Shown here piece by piece: positions 10,741 to 59,639 of a stretch of 64,000 nucleotides of DNA (its first letter is position 1; each line of letters starts with the position of its first letter). This DNA is from Octopus vulgaris (lineage: Eukaryota), in NCBI GenBank assembly GCA_951406725.2, contig OX597821.1, forward strand, positions 11,656,001 through 11,720,000. The letters are read 5' to 3'. The translations under genes were made by a program, and so were the position numbers. Below the pieces are notes generated by a model that worked only from the letters and a program-made list of their open reading frames with translations, made no database searches and was not told the DNA's origin.

Positions 10741-11403
10741 TTGTCACTTCAATATGGCTGTTCCGTATGAAACTACATTACTACCATATTTTTTTTAATC
10801 AAGGAGAATATCTTCTCCAGCTCGTTAACGACACAACCTGTGTCCGATATACTGCGATCAGAGTGGTCACTGATTCCGTCAAACTGCTAGATGGTGGTTG
10901 TTCGCTTCCCAGTTTGCCATATATCGGACACAGGTTGTGTCGTTAACCAGCTGGAGGAGATATTCTCATGGGGTTAAAAAAATTGCAGTAACGTAGTTCC
11001 ATACGGAAGAGTCATGTTGAAGTGACGACAAACATTACTTTCCAATATTGTTATTACTTACATCTCTTATAGAGATTTAGAACTAGCTACGTTGCTTGCT
11101 GCAAGATTGGCGGCTGAATGTCGCTTATTTTACTATGTATTGCGAGCTAGGACGAACGACAGCCATTTCTAGCAGACAAGTATCCAGTACTGAGGAAGGG
11201 AAATACCCTGAAACCAGAATGGTTTACGGGTCCTGTCAAACCGGTAGATGGTAGGAGTTCGCTTCCCAGTTTGCTATATATCGGATACAGGTTATTTCGT
11301 TAACCAGCTGGAGAAGATATTCTCCTGGAGTTAAAAGAATGGCAGTAACGTAGTTTCATTCGGAACAGCCATGTTGAAGTGGCGACAAACATTACTTTAC
11401 ATT
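10741..11403 (+). mobile_element. Retrozyme-like element 1: ~356-nt tandem unit (~1.5 copies) preceded by an inverted partial copy
   Basis: gtcaaac..tagatgg..gttcgcttcccagtttgc at ~10878 and ~11236. 10741-10852 is the reverse complement of ~10920-11030. Contains an HHR. Confidence 0.8.
11184..11230 (+). ncRNA. Type I hammerhead ribozyme
   Basis: ccagta-CTGAGGA-aggg(aaata)ccct-GAAA-cca(gaa)tgg-TT-tacggg. Core intact, all three helices pair, GUU cleavage triplet. Confidence 0.85.
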
Positions 11404-11626: not shown

Positions 11627-11628
<2 letters not shown>

Positions 11629-11900
11629 GAGAAAGAAGCAACAAGAATGGATTAGTTTTTAGTACAATTGTTTCATACAAAGACAGGCTTTTATCTGCTG
11701 CAATTTTTGCAACTTGTAATAAAGCCTGTCTTTGTATGAAACAATTGTACTAAAAACTAATCCATTCTTGTTGCTTCATTCTCGTTTATAATCACCCCAC
11801 ATTATTGTATGGTTAACACCATATAGTTTTTCTGGTGCATCTAAGATAAGTACCACATTCAAGTAACTTCATTGGAATTTACTTGAATCTTAATTGCTTT
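11627..11900. repeat. Fold-back element in (TA)n: ~65-bp inverted arms (11627-11785) plus tail
   Basis: acgagaaagaagcaacaagaatgg...acaggcttt versus aaagcctgt...ccattcttgttgcttcattctcgt. Confidence 0.85.
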
Positions 11901-11941: not shown

Positions 11942-12026
<85 letters not shown>

Positions 12027-12181
12027 CAATAAATGGTGGGGTTGTATTGACCGCACGTGGAGAAATGATAGGCAAAGAAAAATTGTAAAAAAGCAGAATG
12101 CTAAGTCGAAAGAAAATTTTAATGAAAATGGGTGTATGGAAAATTTTGAAAAATTGATAAAATATATATATATTAATTCAG

Positions 12182-12230
12182 AAATATGGAACGCTTCACG
12201 AACTTGCGTGTCATCCTTGTGCAGGGGCCA
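12182..12230 (-). pseudogene. U6: U6 snRNA 3'-half fragment
   Basis: Reverse complement tggcccctgcacaaggatgacacgcaagttcgtgaagcgttccatattt matches the U6 3' half. 5' half (ACAGAGA box) absent. Confidence 0.9.
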
Positions 12231-12272
12231 CGCAAGGATGACACGCAAATTCGTGAAGCGTTCCATATTTTT
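12231..12272 (+). pseudogene. U6: U6 snRNA 3'-end fragment
   Basis: cgcaaggatgacacgcaaattcgtgaagcgttccatattttt matches the conserved U6 3' end, including the oligo-T. Confidence 0.92.
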
Positions 12273-12372
12273 GAATTAATATATTTTATCGATTTTTAAA
12301 ATTTTCCATATACCCATTTTCATTAAAATTTTCTTTCAATTTAGCATCCTGCCTTTTTACAATTTTTCCTTG

Positions 12373-12408
<36 letters not shown>

Positions 12409-12462: not shown

Positions 12463-12534
<72 letters not shown>

Positions 12535-12700
12535 TTGTTTGGTAAAGCACGTGGGTGAATATATAAGAAAATAGTAAAGTGTGAAAAAACGACAGAAGGC
12601 TTAAATGTTAAAAAATATATATATTTGTGTCAAAATGTTTGGAGAATATTGGAAAAATTTTTTTTCCTTTCCTTAAAATGACATAATTTTAAAATTTTTA

Positions 12701-12740
12701 AAGAAATTACCGGTTTCGCGTGTAGCTTTTCAAATTTCTT
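12701..12740 (-). ncRNA. Minimal hammerhead variant (U3-A8 core), left arm
   Basis: Reverse complement aagaaat-TTGAAAA-gc(tacac)gc-GAAA-ccgg-TA-atttctt. Helix I is 7 bp and helix III is palindromic. Confidence 0.65.
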
Positions 12741-12924
12741 GTGACGTTATGTTTATATTGCATGGAGTTATCGTTGTTTTTATTTCCAGGAGATTTCTGA
12801 ATAAGGGGAGGTAGTGAGTTATTTATTCCGGTGTAAGGGAGATAATCGCTTAAAATTTTTTTTTTTTTTTTTTCCCTTTTCCTTGTTTGGGAAAATTTCT
12901 CTGTGTCAGTATGTTCGGATGGTT

Positions 12925-13484
12925 ATATACTTCATAAAAACCCAAAATTAAAGGAAATTCTAAACATACACCAAATCATTAAAAGCTACAAACAGCCTAA
13001 ATCACTTAAAAAGATTCTCACAAAGGCAAAATTGTCTTCTAAAATTACGGATGCAAAAGTAAAAAAATGTGGTAGATCGAACTGTGCAACATGTCCTAAC
13101 CTATTGGAAGGATCAGAATTCTTCTTTAAAGAGGGACAGAAATTTAAGATCAAATCTAACTTTACTTGTGCCTCTGAAAACATAATTTATGTTATTAAAA
13201 GCTCGGGCTGCCACCAAGACTACGTGGGTTCCACGGGACTATCACTCAGGCGTAGATGCACACTGCATCGACAACAGATTGCATTCCCAGAATATAGAAT
13301 GATACCTTTTAGTGAGCATATTGAGAAATGCGCAAAGCAACTACTGCCACAATTTTTAATCTTCCCATTTTACCAATGTGCTTTCGGATCATCAACACAA
13401 ATGAGACTGAACAAGGAAACATTCTTCATTGAAAAGTACAAACCCAGACTCAACCATCCGAACATACTGACACAGAGAAATTAA
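12925..13484 (+). CDS. PLE GIY-YIG endonuclease domain (truncated ORF, no RT)
   Basis: KCGRSNCATC Zn-linker, NIIYVIKSSGCHQDYVGST..LRRRCTLHR, RLNKETFFIEKYKPRLN. Open frame. Confidence 0.88.
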
Positions 13485-13623
13485 CAAGGAAAAGGGGAAA
13501 AAAAAATTTTTTAAGCGATTATCTCCCTTACACCGGAATAAATCACTCACTACCTCCCCTTATTCAGAAATCTCCTGGAAATAAAAACAACGATAACTCC
13601 ATGCAATATAAACATAACGTCAC

Positions 13624-13663
13624 AAGAAATTTGAAAAGCTACACGCGAAACCGGTAATCTCTT
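13624..13663 (+). ncRNA. Minimal hammerhead variant (U3-A8 core), right arm
   Basis: aagaaat-TTGAAAA-gc(tacac)gc-GAAA-ccgg-TA-atctctt. Confidence 0.6.
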
Positions 13664-13796
13664 TAAAAATTTTAAAATTATGTCATTTTAAGGAAAGGAA
13701 AAAAAATTTTTCCAATATTCTCCAGACATTTTGACACAAATATATATATTTTTTAACATTTAAGCCTTCTGTCGTTTTTTCACACTTTACTATTTT

Positions 13797-13870
<74 letters not shown>

Positions 13871-15473: not shown

Positions 15474-16675
15474 GTTTCTTTATTGGCCACACAGGGCTGC
15501 ACACAGATGGGACAAGTTACAAGGTAGAGCTTTTCTTTTGGGGGATGAAAAAAACAAAAAACAAAAGAAACAAAAAAGGGGTGGCGTAGGTTTTCGATCA
15601 AGAGGGATCGTAAAAGGGAAGAAAAGAACAAAAAAGATATTAAAAAAAAATAAAAATATAAAAAATAAAAATAAAAATAAGAAGAGGAAAAGGGACAAAA
15701 GAAAGGAGAAATGAAAAAAGAAGAAAAAGGGGAAAAAAGGGGAAGAGGAAAAAAAAAAACGATCAATAGGGATCGTGTATCACAGTGTTATGATATATGG
15801 TGTAAAGGGGAAAGCAAGTAAGGTTTATCCGTGGGAAGAAAAGCCTACGAAAAAGACCACAGTAACCTTGGTCAATATTGTTTTATGTTACCACATTTGT
15901 TTGCAAGTGGGTAACCCTCTGTTTTCAATTTCTGGGTTCATAGGATTATGCTCAAGGTGGCTTCGTCATTCATACGTGCCATTCTTGCTACATTCACCCA
16001 TCTTTTTTTAAAACATTCGCTAGACAAAACTTGCCTCTCTACTCTCACTTTCCTTTTCAAGTGGTACTTGAAGACGTTGATGAGAGATTGACCAGAGAGG
16101 AAAGTGTTTGTCTCCAATCCTTTCAGACGCGTCCACCAGATACATTCTTTCGCCATAGCCACAAGGATGATGAAAATAGCTCTTCCTTCCCGTTTGAAGG
16201 AAGGAGGCGTGACAATATTAGCGATAGACTCAGCTGATAAACCGACTCGTCCCACACGTGACAGCAGTTGTTCGACATAAGCCCACAGGTCGGAAATTGT
16301 TGGACACTGCACGAGTGCGTGCAGAACGGTTTCGTCGCTCTGACCACATCTCGGGCAGGTCGGCCCCGTGTTTCTCGAGCCGTGTCTGTAGAGCTTATCC
16401 CGAACGGGTTGCGCTTCTCGGTAGCACTGCCAGGTCAGGGATCTCTGGAAGTTGTCCATGGGCCCTGGTCCGAAAGTCGTCCTGAACAGGCGGGTCAGGT
16501 ACTCCTCGTCAACATCCAGGTTCGCCCCGAGCTCGTCGTCGTACCTCTCCTCCACTAATCCCCTATAGAATGCTTTGGTTGTGTTGAAGTCACTCAAGGT
16601 CGACCCAGGACGGCGGAGTTGCTTGAGAGCAACACGACACTCGCGGTGCCATTCGCCCTTCCTCGGCCTCTTTTT

Positions 16676-16676
<1 letters not shown>
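15474..16676 (-). mobile_element. 5'-truncated Tx1/L1-like LINE inserted in (GATA)n
   Basis: ORF2 C-terminus with zf-RVT (TCPRCGQSDETVLHALVQC), stop at 15938, ~460-bp 3' UTR ending near AATAAA. (GATA)n on both sides. Confidence 0.88.
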
Positions 16677-16740
<64 letters not shown>

Positions 16741-17349
16741 AAGTCAATAAATCATTCGGCAAGCCATCCAAGCACCTACAATAAATACCAGTAAAGTAAT
16801 AAGTTTGAGTTACTCAGTTATTACTCCTTCATCTCCCCTTCCACTTCCTGCCTCTTTCATCCACAACTCCTTCTTTCCTCTGTACATGAAGGGGAAGTGG
16901 GATCAAATATTGCCGGTGTATATAGAAACAGAGGCATATATCATTCTAGGCAAAGTGATACATCACACACAGCCACTCCCTAAAAGTCTCAAATAGGTGG
17001 CAAGCAGCCTAAGTGACTGAATTATTTCAAAATAGCGTTGGAAACAATGGAGCTATTAGCGACAAACAATCAACAGTGACAGCAGCAACGCCAATGGCAG
17101 CAGCACTAACGCTCACACCGGTGTTTCGATGTCATCGCCCCCACTCCTGTCACTCTTGATCCATATTTACATTATCGTTCACTGTCAGTAATACTATCAT
17201 AGTCATAAACAACATAACCAGGCAATAGAGAAGAGGGAATGGTGATGTAGTTGAATTTGGTTTTCGCTGATTAGTGCAAGGTTCTTCATCTTTTACACTT
17301 CTGTACATTACTGACACTGACATACGAACGCGCGCAAGCACGCATACAT

Positions 17350-19772: not shown

Positions 19773-20940
19773 ACGGAGAACTGGCAGAATCGTTTCCACG
19801 CTGAGCAAAAGGCTTTTCGGTATTTCGTCTGCCGCAACGTTCTGAGTTGAAATTCCTCCGAGGTCGACTTTGCCTTTCATCCTTTCGGGGTCGATTAAAT
19901 AAGTACCAGTTACGCCCTGGGTTCGATATAATCCACTTAATCCGTGTGTCTGTCCTTGTTTGTCCTCTCTGTGTTTAGCCCCTTGTGGGTAGTAAAGAAA
20001 TAGGTATTTCTTCTGCCGTTACGTTCTGAGTTCAAATTCCGTCGAGGTCGACTTTGCTTTTCATCTTTTTGAGGTCGATTAACTAAGTACTAGTTACGCA
20101 CTGGGGTCAATGTAATCGACTTAATCCGTTTGTCTGTCCTTGCTTGTCTTCTCTGTGTTTAGCCCCTTGTAGGTAGTAAAGAAATAGGTATTTCACTTGT
20201 CTTTAACGTTCTGAGTTCAAATTCCGTCTAAGTCGACTTTGCCTTTCATTCTTTCGGGGACGATAAATTATGTACCAGTTGCGTACTATGATCGATCTAA
20301 TCAACTGGCCCCCTCCCCCTAAATTTCGGGCCTTGTGCCCGCCTAGAGTAGAGAAGAATCGTTTGTACGCCGGACAAAATGCTTAGCAGTGTTTCGTCCG
20401 TTTCTACATTCTGAGTTCAAATGCCACCGAGGTCAACTTGGATTTACTTTCTTTCGGAAGGGATAAAATATGAACCTGCTGAGTTGGGGGTCAACGTAAT
20501 CGACATTTCCGCTCACCAGAATTTTCAGACCGTGTACCTAAATTTGAAACCGCTATAATTTTCTACTGCAGGTACAAGGACAAAAATTTTGGGGGACGAG
20601 CTAGTTGATTACATCGATTCCAGTACTTAAATATTACTTACTTTACCAACACCGAAAAATCGAAAATGCCACCGAGCATTTTGCCCAGCGTGCTAAAAAT
20701 TCTGCTAGCTTGCTGCCTTAGCATATAATATAATTTCAAATTTTAGCTCAAGGCCAGCAATTTCGGGGGAGGAGTAAGTCAATTTGATCGACATTAGTGC
20801 TCAGCTGCTATTTATTTTATCGACCATGATGAAAAGCAAATTCAACTTCGGCGGAATTTCAACTCAGAACGATAAGACATGAAATATTGTTAACCATTTT
20901 ACTCAGCACGGCATCTGTTCTGTTTGCTCGTCGTCTTTTT
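19773..20940. mobile_element. Cluster/tandem array of SINE family B (Meta/MESC-like core)
   Basis: Four + units of gttctgagttcaaattcc..gaggtcgactttgcctttcatcctttcggggtcgat..aagtaccag at ~180-bp period, then two degenerate - copies. Confidence 0.85.
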
Positions 20941-22601: not shown

Positions 22602-22705
22602 AATAATAAGGGTCAAACATTGAATATTAATTTGACTAGTATCAATTTAAAACCAGTTGCCTAGCATATTAAAATCTGGTAGTACAGCAAAGTATATTAC
22701 ATACA

Positions 22706-22916
22706 TATAAGAAGGATGACCACTACGTGGACAACCTTTTGCTAGAGGTAGATCAGCTATGGTATTACCACTAAGAAAGGAATGTTCCCAAGAAAATTTA
22801 GCAAACGTTATGGCTTTTGCTAAATTTTCTTGACAACATTCCTTTCTTAGTGGTATGACCATAGCAGATCTACTTCTAGCATAAGGATTGTCCACGTAGT
22901 GGTCATCCGACTTATA
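22706..22916. repeat. ~210-bp near-perfect palindrome (fold-back)
   Basis: ggatgaccactacgtggacaa...aatttagcaaa, ~10-nt loop, tttgctaaatt...ttgtccacgtagtggtcatcc. Confidence 0.9.
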
Positions 22917-22981
22917 TATATGAATGTACGCATGTATGTATGTATGTATGTATATTTATCTATATATATCTATATATCTAT

Positions 22982-23340
22982 ATAATGTAAAGTATAAAAG
23001 CCATCTCAATATGGCTAACCACAAGGGGGGGATGTTACTGTAGCTTTTTAGCCCCAGGAGATCATCGTCTCCAGCTGGCTTTAGACACACTTTCTGTGCC
23101 CTTATGGTATTTGCAAAGGGAGACCATCCCTTTCTCGTAAGCCTGAGTGGTACGCACCTGACCGGTTTCGAGATTATTGTCTCTAATCAACGGGCGGAGC
23201 CAGCTGGAGACAATGATCTCCTTGGGCTAAAAAGCTACAGTATCACCTCCCCTTTGTGGTTAGCCATATTGAGATGGCTTTTATACTTTACATTATCGAG
23301 CGATTACTGTTTACATCTCGTTCTGAGATTTAATAATGCT
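22982..23340. repeat. Fold-back element with 99-bp inverted arms and an HHR-like spacer
   Basis: 22982-23080 is the reverse complement of 23198-23296. The spacer minus strand reads TTGATTA-gaga(caataa)tctc-GAAA-ccgg-TC. Confidence 0.85.
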
Positions 23341-39014: not shown

Positions 39015-39075
<61 letters not shown>

Positions 39076-39203
39076 CTTATAAAATAAGGGCAAAAGAAAA
39101 ATTCTGATGCCAAATATGCCGAAAAAAGACAAAACTGTCAATAACCATTATAATTTATGCGTCCCGAAACAAGCTGATAGAAATTTCTAAAAAAATTCCG
39201 TTA

Positions 39204-39264
39204 TTACCGTATTGGTCCCAATTTCGGTGTTAATTCATAAGAAGTTTTCCCTCCTCAGCGATAA
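39204..39264 (-). ncRNA. Type I hammerhead ribozyme
   Basis: Reverse complement ttatcg-CTGAGGA-gg...cc-GAAA-ttgg(ga)ccaa-TA-cggtaa. Confidence 0.75.
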
Positions 39265-40006
39265 ATACGTAAGACATAAATGTGATACTTACTCATACCC
39301 ATTGAAAAAGCAAGCACTAAGTCCTGAGTGGACCTAAGAACCCTAAATATATCCAAAATAGAAAATCTTCAGCACATCTCGAGGCACGTGCGATTCGAAC
39401 TAGAAACTTTCACAGAGTGAGAGAATCCGAAACTGAACACAATTAAATTTACAACTAATGTAAGATATAATTTTTTTCGGAGAAAAATTTTATCAATGGC
39501 CAGCATATCAAAAAATACCTTTAAAGGTTAAATTTATAAATAACTTATAAAATAATGGCAAAATAAAAATTCTAATGCCAAATATGCCGAAAATAATACG
39601 GTAATAACGGAATTTTTTAGAAATTTCTATCGGCTTGTTTCGAGACGCATAAATTATAAGGGTTATTGACAATTTTGTCTTTTTTCGGCATATTTGGCAT
39701 TAGAATTTTTATTTTGCCATTGTTTTACAAGTTATTTATAAATTTAAATAAGGTATTTTTTGATATGCTGGCCATTGATAAAAATGTTTTTCGAAAAAAA
39801 TGTTATCCTACATTAGTTGTAAATTTAATAGTATTCACTTCCGGATTCTCTCACTCTGTGAAATTTTCTAGTTCGAATCACACGTGTCTCGAGATGTGCT
39901 GAAGATTTTCTATTTTGTATATATGTAGGGTACTTAGGTCTACTCAGGACTTAGTGCTTGCTTTTTCAATGGGTATGAGTAAGTATCACATTTATATCTT
40001 ACGTAT

Positions 40007-40067
40007 TTATCGCTGAGGAGGGGAAAATTCTTATGAGTTAATCCCGAAATTGGGACCAATACGGTAA
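40007..40067 (+). ncRNA. Type I hammerhead ribozyme
   Basis: ttatcg-CTGAGGA-g-ggga-a-aattc(ttat)gagtt-aa-tccc-GAAA-ttgg(ga)ccaa-TA-cggtaa. AUA triplet, cleavage predicted after 40061. Confidence 0.85.
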
Positions 40068-40284
40068 TAACGGAATGTTTTTAGAAATTTCTATCGGCTT
40101 GTTTCGGGACGCATAAATTATAAAGGTTATTGACAATTTTGTCTATTTTCGTCATATTTGGCATTAGAATTTTTCTTTTGTCCTTAATTTATAAGTTATT
40201 TATAAATGTAACCTTTAAAGGTATTTTTTGATATGCTGACCATTGATAAAATATTTTTTCGAAAACTTTTTATCCTACATTTGT

Positions 40285-41134: not shown

Positions 41135-41220
41135 GCACACACGCACGCACACACGCATATATATATATCGGAAAAAGTCGAGGTAGAAAATGCTAAAGTA
41201 ATTTTATAAAAAACACATTT

Positions 41221-41256
41221 CAGTACCGGTTTCGGTCATTGAGACCTTTTCAACTG
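41221..41256 (-). ncRNA. Minimal hammerhead variant (U3-A8 core) in a short TA-flanked fragment
   Basis: Reverse complement cag-TTGAAAA-ggtc(tcaat)gacc-GAAA-ccgg-TA-ctg. Confidence 0.7.
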
Positions 41257-41375
41257 TTAGTATGGAAAACAATTGAACTTTTGGAAAGAATTAAATTTTG
41301 GAAATATATGTGTTTGTGTATGTATGTATATGTAATATACATATGTAAATATCTACACACAAACACACAACGACA

Positions 41376-51321: not shown

Positions 51322-53263
51322 AATAAAGTTGTTGGATCAAGTAATGAAGGTCACGCAGAGCATCATAGCCCAACTAATTAGGGAGAGAGTCAATTAAGAT
51401 GGGATGCAGTTTAGGTTCGTACCAGGGAAAAGCACCACTGATGCTATGTTTCTGGTAAGAAAGTTGCAGGAGAAATACCTAGCCAAAGATAAACCTCTGT
51501 ACCTGGCTTTCGTTGACATAGAGAAAGCCTTTGACAGGGTCCCCCCATTAATTATCTGGTGATCAATCAGGAAACTAGGGATAGATGAATGGTTATTGAG
51601 AGCTGTGCAAGCCATGTACAGGGATGCTGTCAGTAAGGTGAGGATTGGCAACGAGTACAATGAAGAATTCCGGGTGGAGGTAGGGGTCCACCAAGGTTCA
51701 GTCCTCAGCCCCCTCTTATATATCATAGTCCTCTAGTCAATAACAGAGGAATTCAAGAAAAATTGTCCCTAGGAGGTACTCTATGCTGATGACCTTGATC
51801 TAATTGCTGAGTCACTAAGCGAGCTACAGGAGAAGTTTCAGGTGTGGAAGCAAGGATTAGAATCGAAAGGCCTTAGAGTCAACCTAACTATAACCAAAGT
51901 CCGAATAAGTAGGAAGGCAGACAAACCACAAATCCCTACAGGTAGATGGTCCTGCTCAATCTGTAGAAATGGCGTAGGTAGAAACTCTATAAGATATACC
52001 CAGTGTAAGCTATGGACACATAAGAGGTGCAGCAATATCAAAAGAAGGCTAAATGGGAAGATAGTTTTTGTATGTGGCAGATGCGCAGGAGCAATAAACA
52101 CTGAAAATGTGCAGAGAACAACTTCCGCCACATCCCAGGGAGAAAAACTAGAAGTAGTTGATAGCTGCCGTTACCTAGGTGAACAAGTCAGTAGCGGTGG
52201 TGGGTGCAATGAAAGAGTAGCTGATAGAATAAGAATAGCCTGGGCAAAGTTCAGAGAACTCTTACTTCTGCTGGTGACAAAGGGCCTCTCGCTCAGAGTA
52301 AAAGGCAGACAGTATGACGCATGTGTACGAACAGCCATGCTACATGGCAGTGAAACATGGGTTGTGACTGTTGAGGACATGCGTAAGCTTTCAAGGAATG
52401 AAGCCAGTATGCTCCGCCGGATGTGTAATGTCAGTGTGCATACTCGAGAGAGTGTAAGTACCTTCAGAGAAAAGTTGGACCTAAGAAGCCTCAGATGTGG
52501 TGTGCAAGAGAGACGACTGCGCTGGTCTGCTCATGTGGTGAGAATGGATGAGGAAAGCTGTGTGAAAAAGTGTCACACCCTAGCGTTTGAGGGAACCTGT
52601 GGAATAGGTAGACCCAGGAAGACCTGGGATAAGGTTGGGAAGCACGGCCTTCGAACATTAGGCTTCAACGAGACAATGACTAGTGAGCGAATCTTATGGA
52701 GATATCCTGTGCTTGAGAAGACCCGGCAAACCAAGTGTGCCCATAACCCGTGCCCTATGTCAGGGTGTAACTAGCCCACTTATGCGTAACTTTCCTTCAT
52801 TGGACACTAAACTCTGCTTGCAAAGACTTTTTGAGGCAAGTGAAATCGAAATCGAAATCAAATTCGGTGACTAGCATGCGTGCTAGTAGAGCGCTAAGAG
52901 CACCATCCGAGCGTGGTCGTTGCCAGAGCAGCTGACTGGCTTCCGTGCCGGTGGCACATATAAAGAACCATTCGAGCGTAATCGTTACCAGCGTCTCCTT
53001 ACTGGCACTTGTGCCGGTGGCACGGGAAAATCAACATTCGAGCGAGGTCGTTGCCAGTGCCGCTGGACTGGCTTCAGTGCAGGTGGCACGTAAAAGCACC
53101 CACTACACTATCGGAGCAGTTGACTTTAGGAATGGCATCCAGCTGTAGAAACTCTGCCAGATCAGATTGGAGCCTGGTGCAGTAATCTGGTTAGCCAGTC
53201 CTCAGTCAAATCGTTCAACCCATGCCAGCATGGAAAGCGGACGTTAAACGATGATGATGATGA
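51322..53263 (+). mobile_element. 5'-truncated RTE-clade LINE (RT pseudogene plus 3' UTR)
   Basis: QFRFVPGKSTTDAMF..LYLAFVDIEKAFDRVP, GVHQGSVLSPLL, LYADDL, AMLHGSETW, GRPRKTW. In-frame stops. 3' end ggacgttaaac(gat)n. Confidence 0.93.
52875..53100 (+). repeat. ~65-bp tandem hairpin repeats in the RTE 3' UTR
   Basis: cgagcg..tcgttgccag-N9/10-ctggc..gtgccggtggcac at ~52908, 52974 and 53038. Confidence 0.8.
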
Positions 53264-54830: not shown

Positions 54831-55193
54831 GCTGGCGTTAAATAACGTTAGATATTAAAAGTTATATTTATCATAAGGGCACACGAAGCACCTACCAGCT
54901 GGAATGTGGAGTTAAATCCTTCTATTTAACCACCAATGACACTGAAAAATTCAACAGATAACAACAGTAGCCAGGCAAACGACCAAAACAAAAAAATTGA
55001 CATACCTTCATAGCTTAATGTTATATAATTTGGTATTTTGGATATACTTCTATCATAATTTCGAGTTTTGGCGAACAATATAGCATTAAGCTGTTATGGC
55101 ACGTCAATTTTTTTCTCTTTGTTTGCGCGACTACTGTTGTTATCTGTTGAGTTTTTCAGTGACATTGGTGGTTGAGTTGAGGCTTTTAACTTA

Positions 55194-57287: not shown

Positions 57288-59460
57288 AAATAAATACATG
57301 GAGTTGAACGAAAGTGTTAACAAAATTCCTTTACTCTCGACATATGTTTCGGAGACAACATGGTTTTATTCCAAAGGAATAAACGGTTTAAGATGCAATC
57401 TTCTCTTCAGGAAAGAAAGGGAGCCTCTCTCAACAACAAGACATTATAACAATTACGATGACTGCCTACATGGTAAACAAAACGTTAATAAGTGTTTTAA
57501 AAAAACCGTTAGTAGAATTGACGTCAAAGTTCGATAGTAGGAAGAGAAGGGTTAAAGGAATAATAAGTAGGGAACAAATAGAGAGGGAGGGGTACGTTGA
57601 TTAAGAGAATATTCAAAGGTTTCGGAAAGAATTTCTCTATTGAAGTGGAGTGCACGTTAAACTAATTGTTCAAACTATAATGACTATCGAAATCATTTAT
57701 ATGAGTAAAAAGTATGTTTCTGCCAGTGTTTACATTTGTACGATTTCTCTATAAGTGTGTTTACAAGGGGATTCTTAGAAAAGAGAATATGGAAGAGTTC
57801 AGAGTTGCAAATGTTGCAAAATCTCCTGCCCTTATCAAAAGGAAAGGATACAGACAGTATGAACCAATCTAACTTAAAATCTATATTATTGTCTTTAAGA
57901 TGCCAAACTAATTTACTTAGCCCTGTACTATGTCGTTTTTTTACTATCCCTAAATGATGAATAATGGTTTGAAATTCTCTTGTATAACTGGGAAGTGGAC
58001 GCACCTATATAGAAGAAGACATCGGTACCGGAAGAAATTTTACACTGGTATATAGAATTCTTAATCTTAGAATTATTAGACAAAAATTTAATTCTGTTGG
58101 GGTTGTCCTCCGAGATCGAAACGAAATTTTTATTGCTATGATTGTTGTTACTATTATTATTACCACCACTAACAACACTATTCTTATTATTATTAGTATT
58201 ATTATTGATAATACAACTAATAATACTATCAATAGTAATACCGTTATTATTATTATTATTATTAACATTACCATTGTTATTAACACGACTATTACTATTA
58301 TTATTATTAACATTGTTATCACCATCACTATTATCATTAATATTATTATTAATACTATTCTTATTATTATAATTGTATGAGGGGTTGGCATTAGCAAGAT
58401 TAATGCTGGAACTCCCGGGTGAAGAACCTTTATTTAGCGGCTTGGTATTTTGAGAAGATATAATTTGTGAAAGATTTCTAGTGTTAGAGAAAGCGATTCT
58501 AACTATGTGGGAATTGATAATAGAATAATATCTAGAATTTTTGGGAAAGTTCTTAGCAACAGCTTGACGGAACTGCAAGAGAAGGTTCGATTTAATTTGT
58601 TTTCCGAAAGGGATTACGAACCAGTGACTTTTGAATTGTACGTAGTGTTATGTGTAAAAGTAGGGAGAAATTTCTGGGTTGGGAATTTAGGGTTAAATAG
58701 CGCTTACTTCCCCTGGTCCGTAAAGAATTTATATTATGTATTGGGCTACTTACACTATTAGAATTAAAATCACAATTCCTATTACAAATATCTATTTTAT
58801 CTGGAGAAGCAGATGTAGGTCTAGAATGAGCAGAATCGATATATGACACTTTCTCTTTATAGCCAGCTTTTAACAAGGCGGCGTTATAGAAGTCTGTCAA
58901 CGTAGGCAGATAATTTAGACAGTCTAAGAGATATGTTTTTGACTAAGTTATCGGTAACTACCCTAGCGTGATTACTGTAAAGATTTGTGGAAGGTTTATG
59001 ATATGGGAAGTATGAGTTATTCTGTAAATTGAGGATGATGTCTAAGAAGTTGGCTTTAGTTAACTCATCGCCAAAAACGATGCGCAAGCCCATTCCATTA
59101 AAAAATCTAACTAATCTATTCTTAACCTTCTGTATTTTTTTATTTGAAATGTTTTGGAGGTAAAGCAGACAATCGTCGCGATAAAGACCTCCGCAGATGT
59201 CCGGGAACTGGTCTGCCATTTCGTAAAGAATATATATTCGACCAAATCGGCTATCGGGGCGCTGTCTGTACTTCCCATTAATACATCAAACGCATTAGGG
59301 GTATCACTGCGGACCCACAACTTGCTATCGAACTTGATGAATGATTTCCTAGCAGTCAGTATCACATTAATTTTCTTCCCTAGAGAGGCCTGCCTTATTG
59401 TGTGCGTGCCATAGTGCCATAGGGCCTTATTAAGTATATTAGTATTAAGTATAATCGTAT
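57285..59460 (-). mobile_element. 5'-truncated, frameshifted Penelope-like element (RT plus GIY-YIG) in (TA)n
   Basis: RT motifs LMGSTDSAPIADLV, GGLYRDDCL, NFLDIILNL, YHKP. EN motifs SIYQCKI..FYIGASTSQLYKRISNH and CNICNSE..KCKH. HHR in the 3' terminal region. Confidence 0.92.
57334..57415 (-). ncRNA. Type I hammerhead ribozyme in the PLE 3' terminal repeat
   Basis: Reverse complement ctttc-CTGAAGA-gaaga...tttattcc(ttt)ggaataaa...tctcc-GAAA-catatg-TC-gagag. GUC triplet and palindromic helix III. Confidence 0.82.
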
Positions 59461-59467
59461 TATATAT

Positions 59468-59639
59468 ATGAAAAAAACAAAAGACGAAGATAGGTGGTGT
59501 ACAAAACAAACAGGTGTATTAGTATAACGCTCAGGAATAGAAAGTCTTTTACGTTTCGAGCCTACGCTCTTCTACAGAAAGGGACACAGAAAAAACAAGG
59601 AGAGAAAAAATGTGTGTAGTGGCTAACGATCTATCATGG

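What the first reader, a model, noticed from the sequence alone, without database searches (positions are those of the whole stretch)
12068..12377. U6 snRNA-derived palindrome (3' half of U6 plus downstream flank, inverted)
Two divergent copies of the U6 3' portion, each followed by the same ~105-bp AT-rich flank, form a ~150-bp stem between (TA)n tracts. A plain U6 retrocopy would end at the oligo-T, so the flank implies a read-through or chimeric transcript, a U6-containing mobile element, or a DNA-level event. The architecture matches the neighbouring PLE and retrozyme fold-backs, suggesting PLE trans-mobilisation (inference). If transcribed, it gives dsRNA or antisense RNA against the U6 ISL/3' region. 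The break falls near U6 GCGCAA, recalled as the Dada-U6 transposon target site (unverified).
Basis: partly seen in the sequence, partly recalled or inferred. Interest (0 to 1): 0.8.

Follow-up and report, generated by a model that had tools for sequence, protein, structure and literature searches.

The report
U6 fused at Penelope ribozyme cut
A piece of the spliceosomal U6 RNA was joined to a Penelope-type jumping gene at the spot where that element's own ribozyme is predicted to cut its RNA, and the hybrid was pasted into the genome as a hairpin; it is probably a dead, one-off copy, but it may be a fossil sign that these ribozymes really cut in living cells.

Summary
The palindrome is real: arms 12068-12221 and 12231-12377, about 6% diverged, between (TA)n tracts, each holding the U6 3' end with five T. 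The 'flank' is not U6 gene flank. In other copies the place taken here by U6 holds a minimal hammerhead core (U3-A8 type, as in the neighbour), and the U6 junction falls at its predicted cleavage site. Best reading: mature U6 (2',3'-cyclic phosphate) was ligated, probably by RtcB, to the 5'-OH ribozyme product, then reverse-transcribed and inserted by PLE machinery with the usual head-to-head inversion. An RT jump from the cut end onto U6 is the main rival. Stem I of the parent ribozyme, actual cleavage, and whether more U6-joined copies exist could not be tested. Dada-U6 is not supported; nothing suggests function. U6/LINE chimeras are known; a PLE partner with a ribozyme-defined junction was not found in four literature searches.

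The parts
11950..12023 (.). (TA)n target tract, left
12026..12067 (-). 42-nt PLE-type 3' extension ('tail'), on the left arm only; holds CCACGTGC 7 nt after the internal TAT end
   Evidence: highest summed depth of the family lies at 12044-12061
12068..12179 (-). 3' part of a high-copy PLE-type repeat (pLTR), starting at the predicted first base after the hammerhead cut; left arm
   Evidence: 336, 4, 45 and 3 contigs laid from 4 of 4 runs; loose ends behind 12180
12180..12230 (-). U6 snRNA 3' part, Rfam model 55-105, ending in the five-position T run (one T>C); three decay substitutions (12181, 12203, 12220)
12222..12230 (.). 9-nt loop of the palindrome; U6 sequence present only on the left arm. 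The inversion junction 12230/12231 has 2-3 nt of microhomology
12231..12272 (+). U6 snRNA 3' part, Rfam model 64-105, ending in five T
12273..12377 (+). Same PLE-type 3' part, right arm, without tail, ending at TAT in the (TA)n tract; 3 substitutions and 2 deletions against the family
12375..12404 (.). (TA)n target tract, right
12532..13798 (+). Neighbouring separate PLE insertion used as reference: 5'-truncated GIY-YIG ORF (12925-13484) with a C-x4-C-x2-C linker, inverted arm 12532-12924 with its own tail
   Evidence: Pfam GIY-YIG E 0.013, weak; Atlas 0.97 to clusters with GIY-YIG in 29-42% of members
12700..12740 (-). Complete U3-A8 type I hammerhead of the neighbour (stem I 7 bp, palindromic stem III); second copy at about 13624-13665 on +

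Best explanation
A decayed PLE-made insertion of a U6-PLE chimeric RNA. (1) A PLE-type transcript was cut by the hammerhead in its pLTR, leaving a 5'-OH RNA of about 154 nt (inferred from motif position). (2) Mature U6, ending in five U and a 2',3'-cyclic phosphate, was ligated to that end, most likely by RtcB (inferred by analogy with U6/L1 and retrozyme ligation). (3) A PLE protein nicked a (TA)n tract and reverse-transcribed the chimera; one arm starts at the tail end, the other at the internal TAT site, both stop inside U6 and are joined head-to-head over 2-3 nt of microhomology (anatomy shown, enzyme inferred). (4) The arms have since decayed neutrally (shown). No function is implied.
For: Shown: flank and tail are an abundant repeat in runs of four organism labels. 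Behind 12180 the displayed loose ends of 3 of 4 runs are not U6; read by hand on the minus strand they give UGAAAA, a G-C-closed stem II of 4-5 bp, GAAA, a palindromic stem III (AACCGGUU in the X1 consensus of 10 records) and U17, so the first base after the predicted cut is the G of GAAUUAA, which is the base that follows the five T of U6 in both arms. The same core lies in the neighbour PLE with a full stem I and at 41253-41223. A descriptor without stem I and with stem II of 4 bp or more hit 0 of 12.8 million shuffled positions. One-sided 30-40 nt tail, inverted 5'-truncated copy and (TA)n bias are PLE hallmarks (PMC8557442; PMC11167929). CCACGTGC occurs only twice in the window, in the tails of this element and the neighbour, 7-8 nt after the internal TAT (shuffle mean 0.5). 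X2 and X5 contigs run into (TA)n near the same internal end. RtcB joins U6>p to 5'-OH RNA, mature human U6 ends in 5 U (PMC6789731); hammerhead products have 5'-OH and are RtcB substrates (PMC7229834). In the neighbour each arm holds sequence the other lacks, which points to two RNA-templated strands; if so here, both crossed the same junction, which then pre-existed in the RNA.
Against: One locus only. The parent's ribozyme is read from 30-letter loose ends: position 3 and stem I were not visible; the X5 record lacks G12; the X1 consensus has agreement 0.67; 36 loose-end rows were not shown. The predicted cleavage triplet is UUU, which I recall as a poor one (one search gave nothing on it). 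The parent has TTT at the junction, so 3 of the 5 T are also microhomology and the joint is fixed only within 4 bonds. The right arm lies wholly within the left, so fold-back copying can explain the shared junction without ligation (self-priming is proposed in PMC3846280). Metazoan PLE hammerheads cut weakly in vitro and no RNA ends at the site were seen in Anolis data. The autonomous partner was not identified.
Confidence: 0.5

Rival explanations
1. End-to-end template jump: the PLE RT ran off the 5' end of the ribozyme-cut RNA and jumped onto the 3' end of U6 during insertion; the second arm was copied from the first by fold-back.
For: Explains the same junction and five T equally well. Template switching to U6 is the classical model for U6/LINE chimeras, many with 5'-truncated U6 (PMC4476161). 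The right arm is contained in the left, with microhomology at the turn.
Against: The neighbour's arms each have unique sequence, which simple fold-back cannot give. U6/L1 chimeric RNA forms without retrotransposition. A cyclic-phosphate end is, from memory, a poor jump acceptor (untested).
Confidence: 0.26
2. Microhomology switch from an uncut PLE RNA to U6 at a TTT run; the match to the ribozyme site is chance.
For: 3 nt of T microhomology at the junction. Ribozyme cleavage is not needed for PLE insertion in vitro.
Against: Eleven other T-runs of 3 or more lie in the 154 nt downstream, most longer, so about 1 in 12 at best, less with unseen upstream sequence.
Confidence: 0.08
3. Two steps or a family: a U6-pLTR fusion arose once in DNA (or by the routes above) at a donor locus, and its read-through RNA was mobilised in trans; this copy would be one member of a small U6-headed non-autonomous PLE family.
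For: pLTRs suffice for mobilisation in trans (PMC3846280). snRNA-headed SINEs exist (PMC4494074). An octopus annotation lists a recent 'SINE/U' family of 19 insertions, not further described in the passages seen. U6-joined records would be hidden by the human-match filter.
Against: None of the displayed loose ends behind 12180 is U6. No second copy in the 64 kb. No internal promoter is known for snRNA genes.
Confidence: 0.1
4. Dada-U6 DNA transposon footprint.
For: The right arm starts one base inside the published target GCGCAA.
Against: The left arm reads through the target; no Dada subterminal 9-mer within 7 kb; no DDE transposase ORF recognised nearby (by eye only); PLE tail and TA targets are not Dada features.
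Confidence: 0.02
5. A selected hairpin that makes dsRNA or antisense RNA against U6.
For: The stem is very stable if transcribed.
Against: Both arms changed independently, three changes fall in the antisense-U6 arm, two deletions in the other; at least eight similar fold-backs without U6 lie in the window.
Confidence: 0.03
6. Assembly or library fold-back artefact.
For: U6 fold-backs can look artefactual: L013 is a perfect palindrome centred on the middle of its contig.
Against: Here the arms differ by 6% plus indels, each arm has its own changes against the family, and only one has the tail.
Confidence: 0.01

Closest known systems
U6/LINE-1 chimeric pseudogenes formed by RtcB ligation (Moldovan et al. 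2019, PMC6789731; passages read)
   Same: U6 3' end with 4-6 T joined in sense to a 5'-shortened retroelement RNA; no added bases.
   Different: Partner is a PLE-type pLTR; the 5'-OH would come from the element's own hammerhead rather than an unknown nuclease, so the junction is site-specific; U6 is 5'-truncated; insertion is palindromic in (TA)n with no visible TSD or poly(A).
U6-L2, U6-RTE and U6-SINE chimeras of platypus, lizard and opossum (Doucet et al. 2015, PMC4476161; passages read)
   Same: 5'-truncated U6 in front of a short 3' end of a non-L1 retroelement.
   Different: LINE/SINE partners; the word Penelope does not occur in that text; no ribozyme, no inversion.
EN+ Penelope-like element insertions, Neptune-type (Craig et al. 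2021, PMC8557442; Frangieh et al. 2024, PMC11167929)
   Same: Inverted 5'-truncated copy, one-sided tail, two RT start sites, microsatellite target, hammerhead in the pLTR.
   Different: Everything upstream of the ribozyme cut, the ribozyme core included, is replaced by U6.
Minimal PLE hammerheads and non-LTR retrozymes (Cervera and De la Pena 2014, PMC4209133; Cervera and De la Pena 2020, PMC7229834)
   Same: U3-A8 core variant, G10.1-C11.1 pair, palindromic short helix III; RtcB acts on the products in vitro.
   Different: The product was joined to a host snRNA instead of being circularised; no tandem array seen here.
SINEU (Kojima 2015, PMC4494074; passages read)
   Same: snRNA-derived head on a retroposed unit.
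   Different: U1/U2 heads, poly(A) tails, Tx1-mobilised, thousands of copies; here U6, PLE, and only one copy seen.

Membership tests
U6/retroelement chimeric retrocopy | U6 3' end with 4-8 T joined in sense, without spacer, to a retroelement 3' part | tested here: met
   five T positions in both arms, then the repeat
U6/retroelement chimeric retrocopy | One insertion event inside a target-site duplication | tested here: inconclusive
   both ends lie in (TA)n, where a TSD cannot be read
U6/retroelement chimeric retrocopy | Partner is a LINE or SINE | tested here: not met
   partner has PLE features; hence a variant, not a plain member
U6/retroelement chimeric retrocopy | Ligated chimeric RNA exists apart from the genomic copy | not testable with these tools
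   only contigs were on offer and human-like records are filtered
EN+ PLE insertion | Head-to-head inverted 5'-truncated copy | tested here: met
EN+ PLE insertion | 30-40 nt tail on one end only | tested here: met
   42-44 nt on the left arm
EN+ PLE insertion | Microsatellite / AT-rich target | tested here: met
   (X2 and X5 loose ends in TA repeats)
EN+ PLE insertion | Parent encodes RT plus GIY-YIG endonuclease | not testable with these tools
   no genome held; parent seen only as 30 letters upstream; it may be non-autonomous
Minimal type I hammerhead (parent family) | Core positions 4-9, G10.1-C11.1 with helix II, GAAA, A15.1-U16.1, H17, palindromic helix III | tested here: met
   read by hand: X13 record meets all; X1 consensus shows GAAA and helix III; X5 record lacks G12
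Minimal type I hammerhead (parent family) | Position 3 pairing with 8, and helix I closing over the cut | not testable with these tools
   display ends at position 4; met in the neighbour
Minimal type I hammerhead (parent family) | Self-cleavage | not testable with these tools
   needs an experiment
Dada-U6 | U6 split into 1-70 and 65-end around the element, GCGCAA duplicated | tested here: not met
   pieces are model 55-105 and 64-105, inverted, no 5' U6 part
Dada-U6 | 9-nt subterminal inverted repeats and DDE transposase | tested here: not met
   (motifs only at 20147 and 45218); transposase looked for by eye only
SINEU-like family | Many copies sharing one snRNA|body junction | tested here: inconclusive
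   none displayed, but such records may be filtered out

The most novel reading that the evidence does not exclude
PLE hammerheads cut in the germ line and feed a regular host pathway in which RtcB caps the 5'-OH product with U6; the PLE protein then retrotransposes these RNAs. U6-PLE junctions would pile up at ribozyme position 1.1 across animal genomes, giving a genome-readable assay of in vivo cleavage and of sense-strand templating by PLEs, and possibly seeding U6-headed non-autonomous PLE families.
Probability: 0.3. Interest if true: 0.8.

Novelty: new variant of a known kind. Interest (0 to 1): 0.62.

Why it matters
The role of hammerheads in endonuclease-bearing PLEs is called unclear (PMC8557442); they cut weakly in vitro, are dispensable for insertion in vitro, and no RNA ends were seen at the site in Anolis data. 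A host RNA fused at the predicted cut would be fossil evidence that the cut happens in the germ line and that the cut sense RNA is a template, against the antisense-template idea raised in PMC3846280. It would also name a natural source of the 5'-OH end, left as an 'undefined endoribonuclease' in the U6/L1 model. The prediction is cheap to test in any PLE-rich genome. The locus itself is probably inert.

Tried and rejected
No whole genome is held, so no genome-wide count. No RNA holder listed; the 'RNA?' label of X5 is a guess and is not used. Zero depth at 12182-12186 proves nothing (human-like records are filtered). Summed depths are not copy numbers. A 24-nt tail motif found 0 matches in metagenome contigs. 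The U6 fold-back pattern gave 13 loci, 12 of them short hairpins with no Rfam U6 match. L013 could not be extended. Family motifs were absent from the supplements held for PMC8557442 (1 file, metadata sheet) and PMC13282606 (1 file); their sequence libraries were not visible and could hold the parent. The parent's stem II motif has no copy in the window (18 matches at 2 mismatches, 20.8 expected). The flank is not significantly alike to the 3' products of the neighbour or of the 41.2 kb hammerhead (p 0.26-0.39), so only motifs are shared. The tails form no significant stem-loop (z about 0). A-to-I editing as cause of the arm differences was rejected: changes go in all transition directions. 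Reading the loose ends as an ORF end was considered and dropped in favour of the ribozyme. Rfam miRNA hits on the hairpin are generic stem matches far below gathering. Earlier scan notes: nothing by sequence or place.

Full report
Observation. The inverted repeat is as described. The arms align over 12069-12219 and 12233-12376 with 135 matches, 9 substitutions and 2 indels; one more mismatch at 12220 extends the stem to a 9-nt loop at 12222-12230, and none of 100 shuffles folds as well (z = -31). Rfam U6 matches both arms: model 55-105 on the minus strand at 12230-12180 (E 3.7e-10) and 64-105 on the plus strand at 12231-12272 (E 4.4e-7). Both end in five T positions and continue into the same AT-rich sequence. 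(TA)n tracts close both ends.

Setting. The window is a microsatellite-rich animal sequence with many fold-backs between (TA)n tracts. From memory its repeats look like those of an octopus; this was not tested, and no genome is held. The next insertion (12532-13798) is a PLE fragment: a GIY-YIG-like ORF (Pfam E 0.013, weak; Atlas 0.97 to clusters where 29-42% of members carry GIY-YIG) with a C-x4-C-x2-C linker of the Neptune type (motif), an inverted arm with its own tail, and a complete hammerhead with the U3-A8 core and a 7-bp stem I (3 hits in the window, 2 in ten shuffles, none of those at full strength). The 8-mer CCACGTGC occurs twice in the window, in the tail of that element and in the tail of ours, 8 and 7 nt after the internal TAT end (shuffle mean 0.5). 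Inverted truncated copy, one-sided tail and (TA)n bias are listed as PLE hallmarks in PMC8557442 (passages), and the tail was traced to two RT start sites in PMC11167929 (parts 1-2 of 4).

What the flank is. I searched public runs with 12026-12186 (24 listed, 20 holding part of it, four organism labels) and laid 4 of them, one per label. All four hold it: 336, 4, 45 and 3 contigs. In X1 the summed depth reaches about 196,000 over the tail against 28-75 for the eight X1 contigs listed singly; this is not a copy number, but it marks an abundant repeat. X2 and X5 contigs run into (TA)n near the place where our right arm ends. Behind position 12180, where the window turns into U6, the loose ends displayed for X1 (10 records, agreement 0.67), X5 (1) and X13 (1) are not U6. 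Read by hand on the minus strand they give UGAAAA, a G-C-closed stem II (GUCAC/GUGAC in X5, 4 bp in X13), GAAA, a palindromic stem III (AACCGGUU in the X1 consensus) and one more U. This is the register of the neighbour's hammerhead and of a third one at 41253-41223, and it fits the published minimal PLE hammerhead, U3-A8 variant included (PMC4209133, parts 1-2 of 4). A descriptor of that strictness hit 0 of 12.8 million shuffled positions (7 with stem II of only 2 bp). The X13 record meets it in full; the X5 record lacks G12. The predicted cut leaves a product starting GAAUUAA, and that is what follows the five T of U6 in both arms. Limits: the display ends at core position 4, so position 3 and stem I are unseen; 36 loose-end rows were not shown; human-like records are filtered, so U6-joined copies could not appear; the parent has TTT at the joint, which fixes it only within four bonds; and the triplet UUU is, from memory, a poor one (PMC6155905 passages, did not address it).

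Mechanism. Mature human U6 ends in five U and a 2',3'-cyclic phosphate, and RtcB joins it to 5'-OH RNAs, giving U6/L1 chimeras; the nuclease that makes the 5'-OH is left undefined (PMC6789731, passages). Hammerhead products carry a 5'-OH and are RtcB substrates in vitro, including a mussel retrozyme (PMC7229834, passages). I therefore favour cut, ligation to U6, then PLE insertion with inversion (0.50). An RT jump from the cut end onto U6 gives the same junction (0.26). The neighbour leans towards ligation: each of its arms has sequence the other lacks, which needs two RNA-templated strands, and if that held here both crossed one junction. But our right arm lies within the left, with 2-3 nt of microhomology at the turn, so fold-back copying is open (self-priming is proposed in PMC3846280, passages). 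Both routes need the ribozyme cut (0.76 together). A switch at TTT without a cut would have had eleven other T-runs in the 154 nt downstream, so 0.08. A donor locus or small U6-headed family gets 0.10.

Age and function. Against the family letters and the U6 model, the left arm has 7 substitutions and the right 3 plus two deletions (X13 record 9 has no gap against the left arm). This is independent decay of a few percent per arm; on the octopus scale quoted in PMC13282606 (0.09 = 25 My; passages) that would be roughly 5-13 My, if the host is an octopus. Nothing points to selection on the hairpin. The divergence and the one-sided tail also argue against an artefact, unlike L013, a perfect U6 palindrome centred on its contig.

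Dada. The recalled target is right (U6 65-70; PMC3706591, passages), and the right arm starts one base inside it, but the left arm reads through it, no U6 5' part is present, and the subterminal 9-mers are 7.7 and 33 kb away. Rejected.

Novelty. U6 chimeras with L1, L2, RTE and SINEs are known (PMC4476161, PMC11838501; passages; neither text contains 'Penelope'), as are snRNA-headed SINEs (PMC4494074, passages) and PLE-derived retrozymes (10.64898/2026.07.22.740005, part 1 of 5). Four searches (listings only for papers not named above) found no U6-PLE chimera and no U6 joined at a natural ribozyme cut. The library lacks most subscription papers and repeat databases, and the sequence supplements of PMC8557442 and PMC13282606 were not visible. 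Verdict: a new variant of a known kind, probably inert, of interest 0.62 because it yields a sharp genome-wide test of whether PLE hammerheads cut in vivo.

Noticed in passing
window 12068-12377: All 9 arm substitutions are transitions, against 71 of 124 in nine other fold-backs of the window (Fisher p 0.011, post hoc). Directions are mixed, so not A-to-I editing; unexplained.
   Followed up: partly
window 41160-41265 (minus): Solo U3-A8 minimal hammerhead (stem I 3 bp, stem II 4 bp, palindromic stem III, A17) about 60 nt from a TA tract; a third PLE-type family.
   Followed up: partly
window 39075-40284: 1.1-kb fold-back with a C3-G8 hammerhead in each arm and a partial tandem.
   Followed up: no
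window 57693-59518 (minus): Frameshifted PLE-like ORF pieces (RT-like motifs, GIY-YIG-like motif) with a long Asn-rich insert, reminiscent of the N-rich inserts in rotifer Penelopes; Pfam gave no informative hit.
   Followed up: no
window 10743-11381, 11628-11783, 22692-22929, 22982-23296, 54910-55191: Further short fold-backs near TA tracts; 11628-11783 has a long extension on the right arm only.
   Followed up: partly
L013 473-578: A second U6 3'-half fold-back (Rfam 51.8 bits on both strands) turning 3 nt from the window's left-arm end; perfect over the whole 1050-nt locus and centred on its 5574-bp contig, so probably an assembly fold of a U6 gene. The shared turning region may mark a place where copies of U6 tend to stop or snap back.
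   Followed up: partly
window 12077-12104: X2, X5 and X13 hold a diverged subfamily whose TA-joined end differs from the window's; X1 has a T at 12092 in about two thirds of its depth where the other runs have G.
   Followed up: no
window 51773-52774 and 15938-16813 (minus): LINE-like ORF fragments (by eye); not scanned.
   Followed up: no
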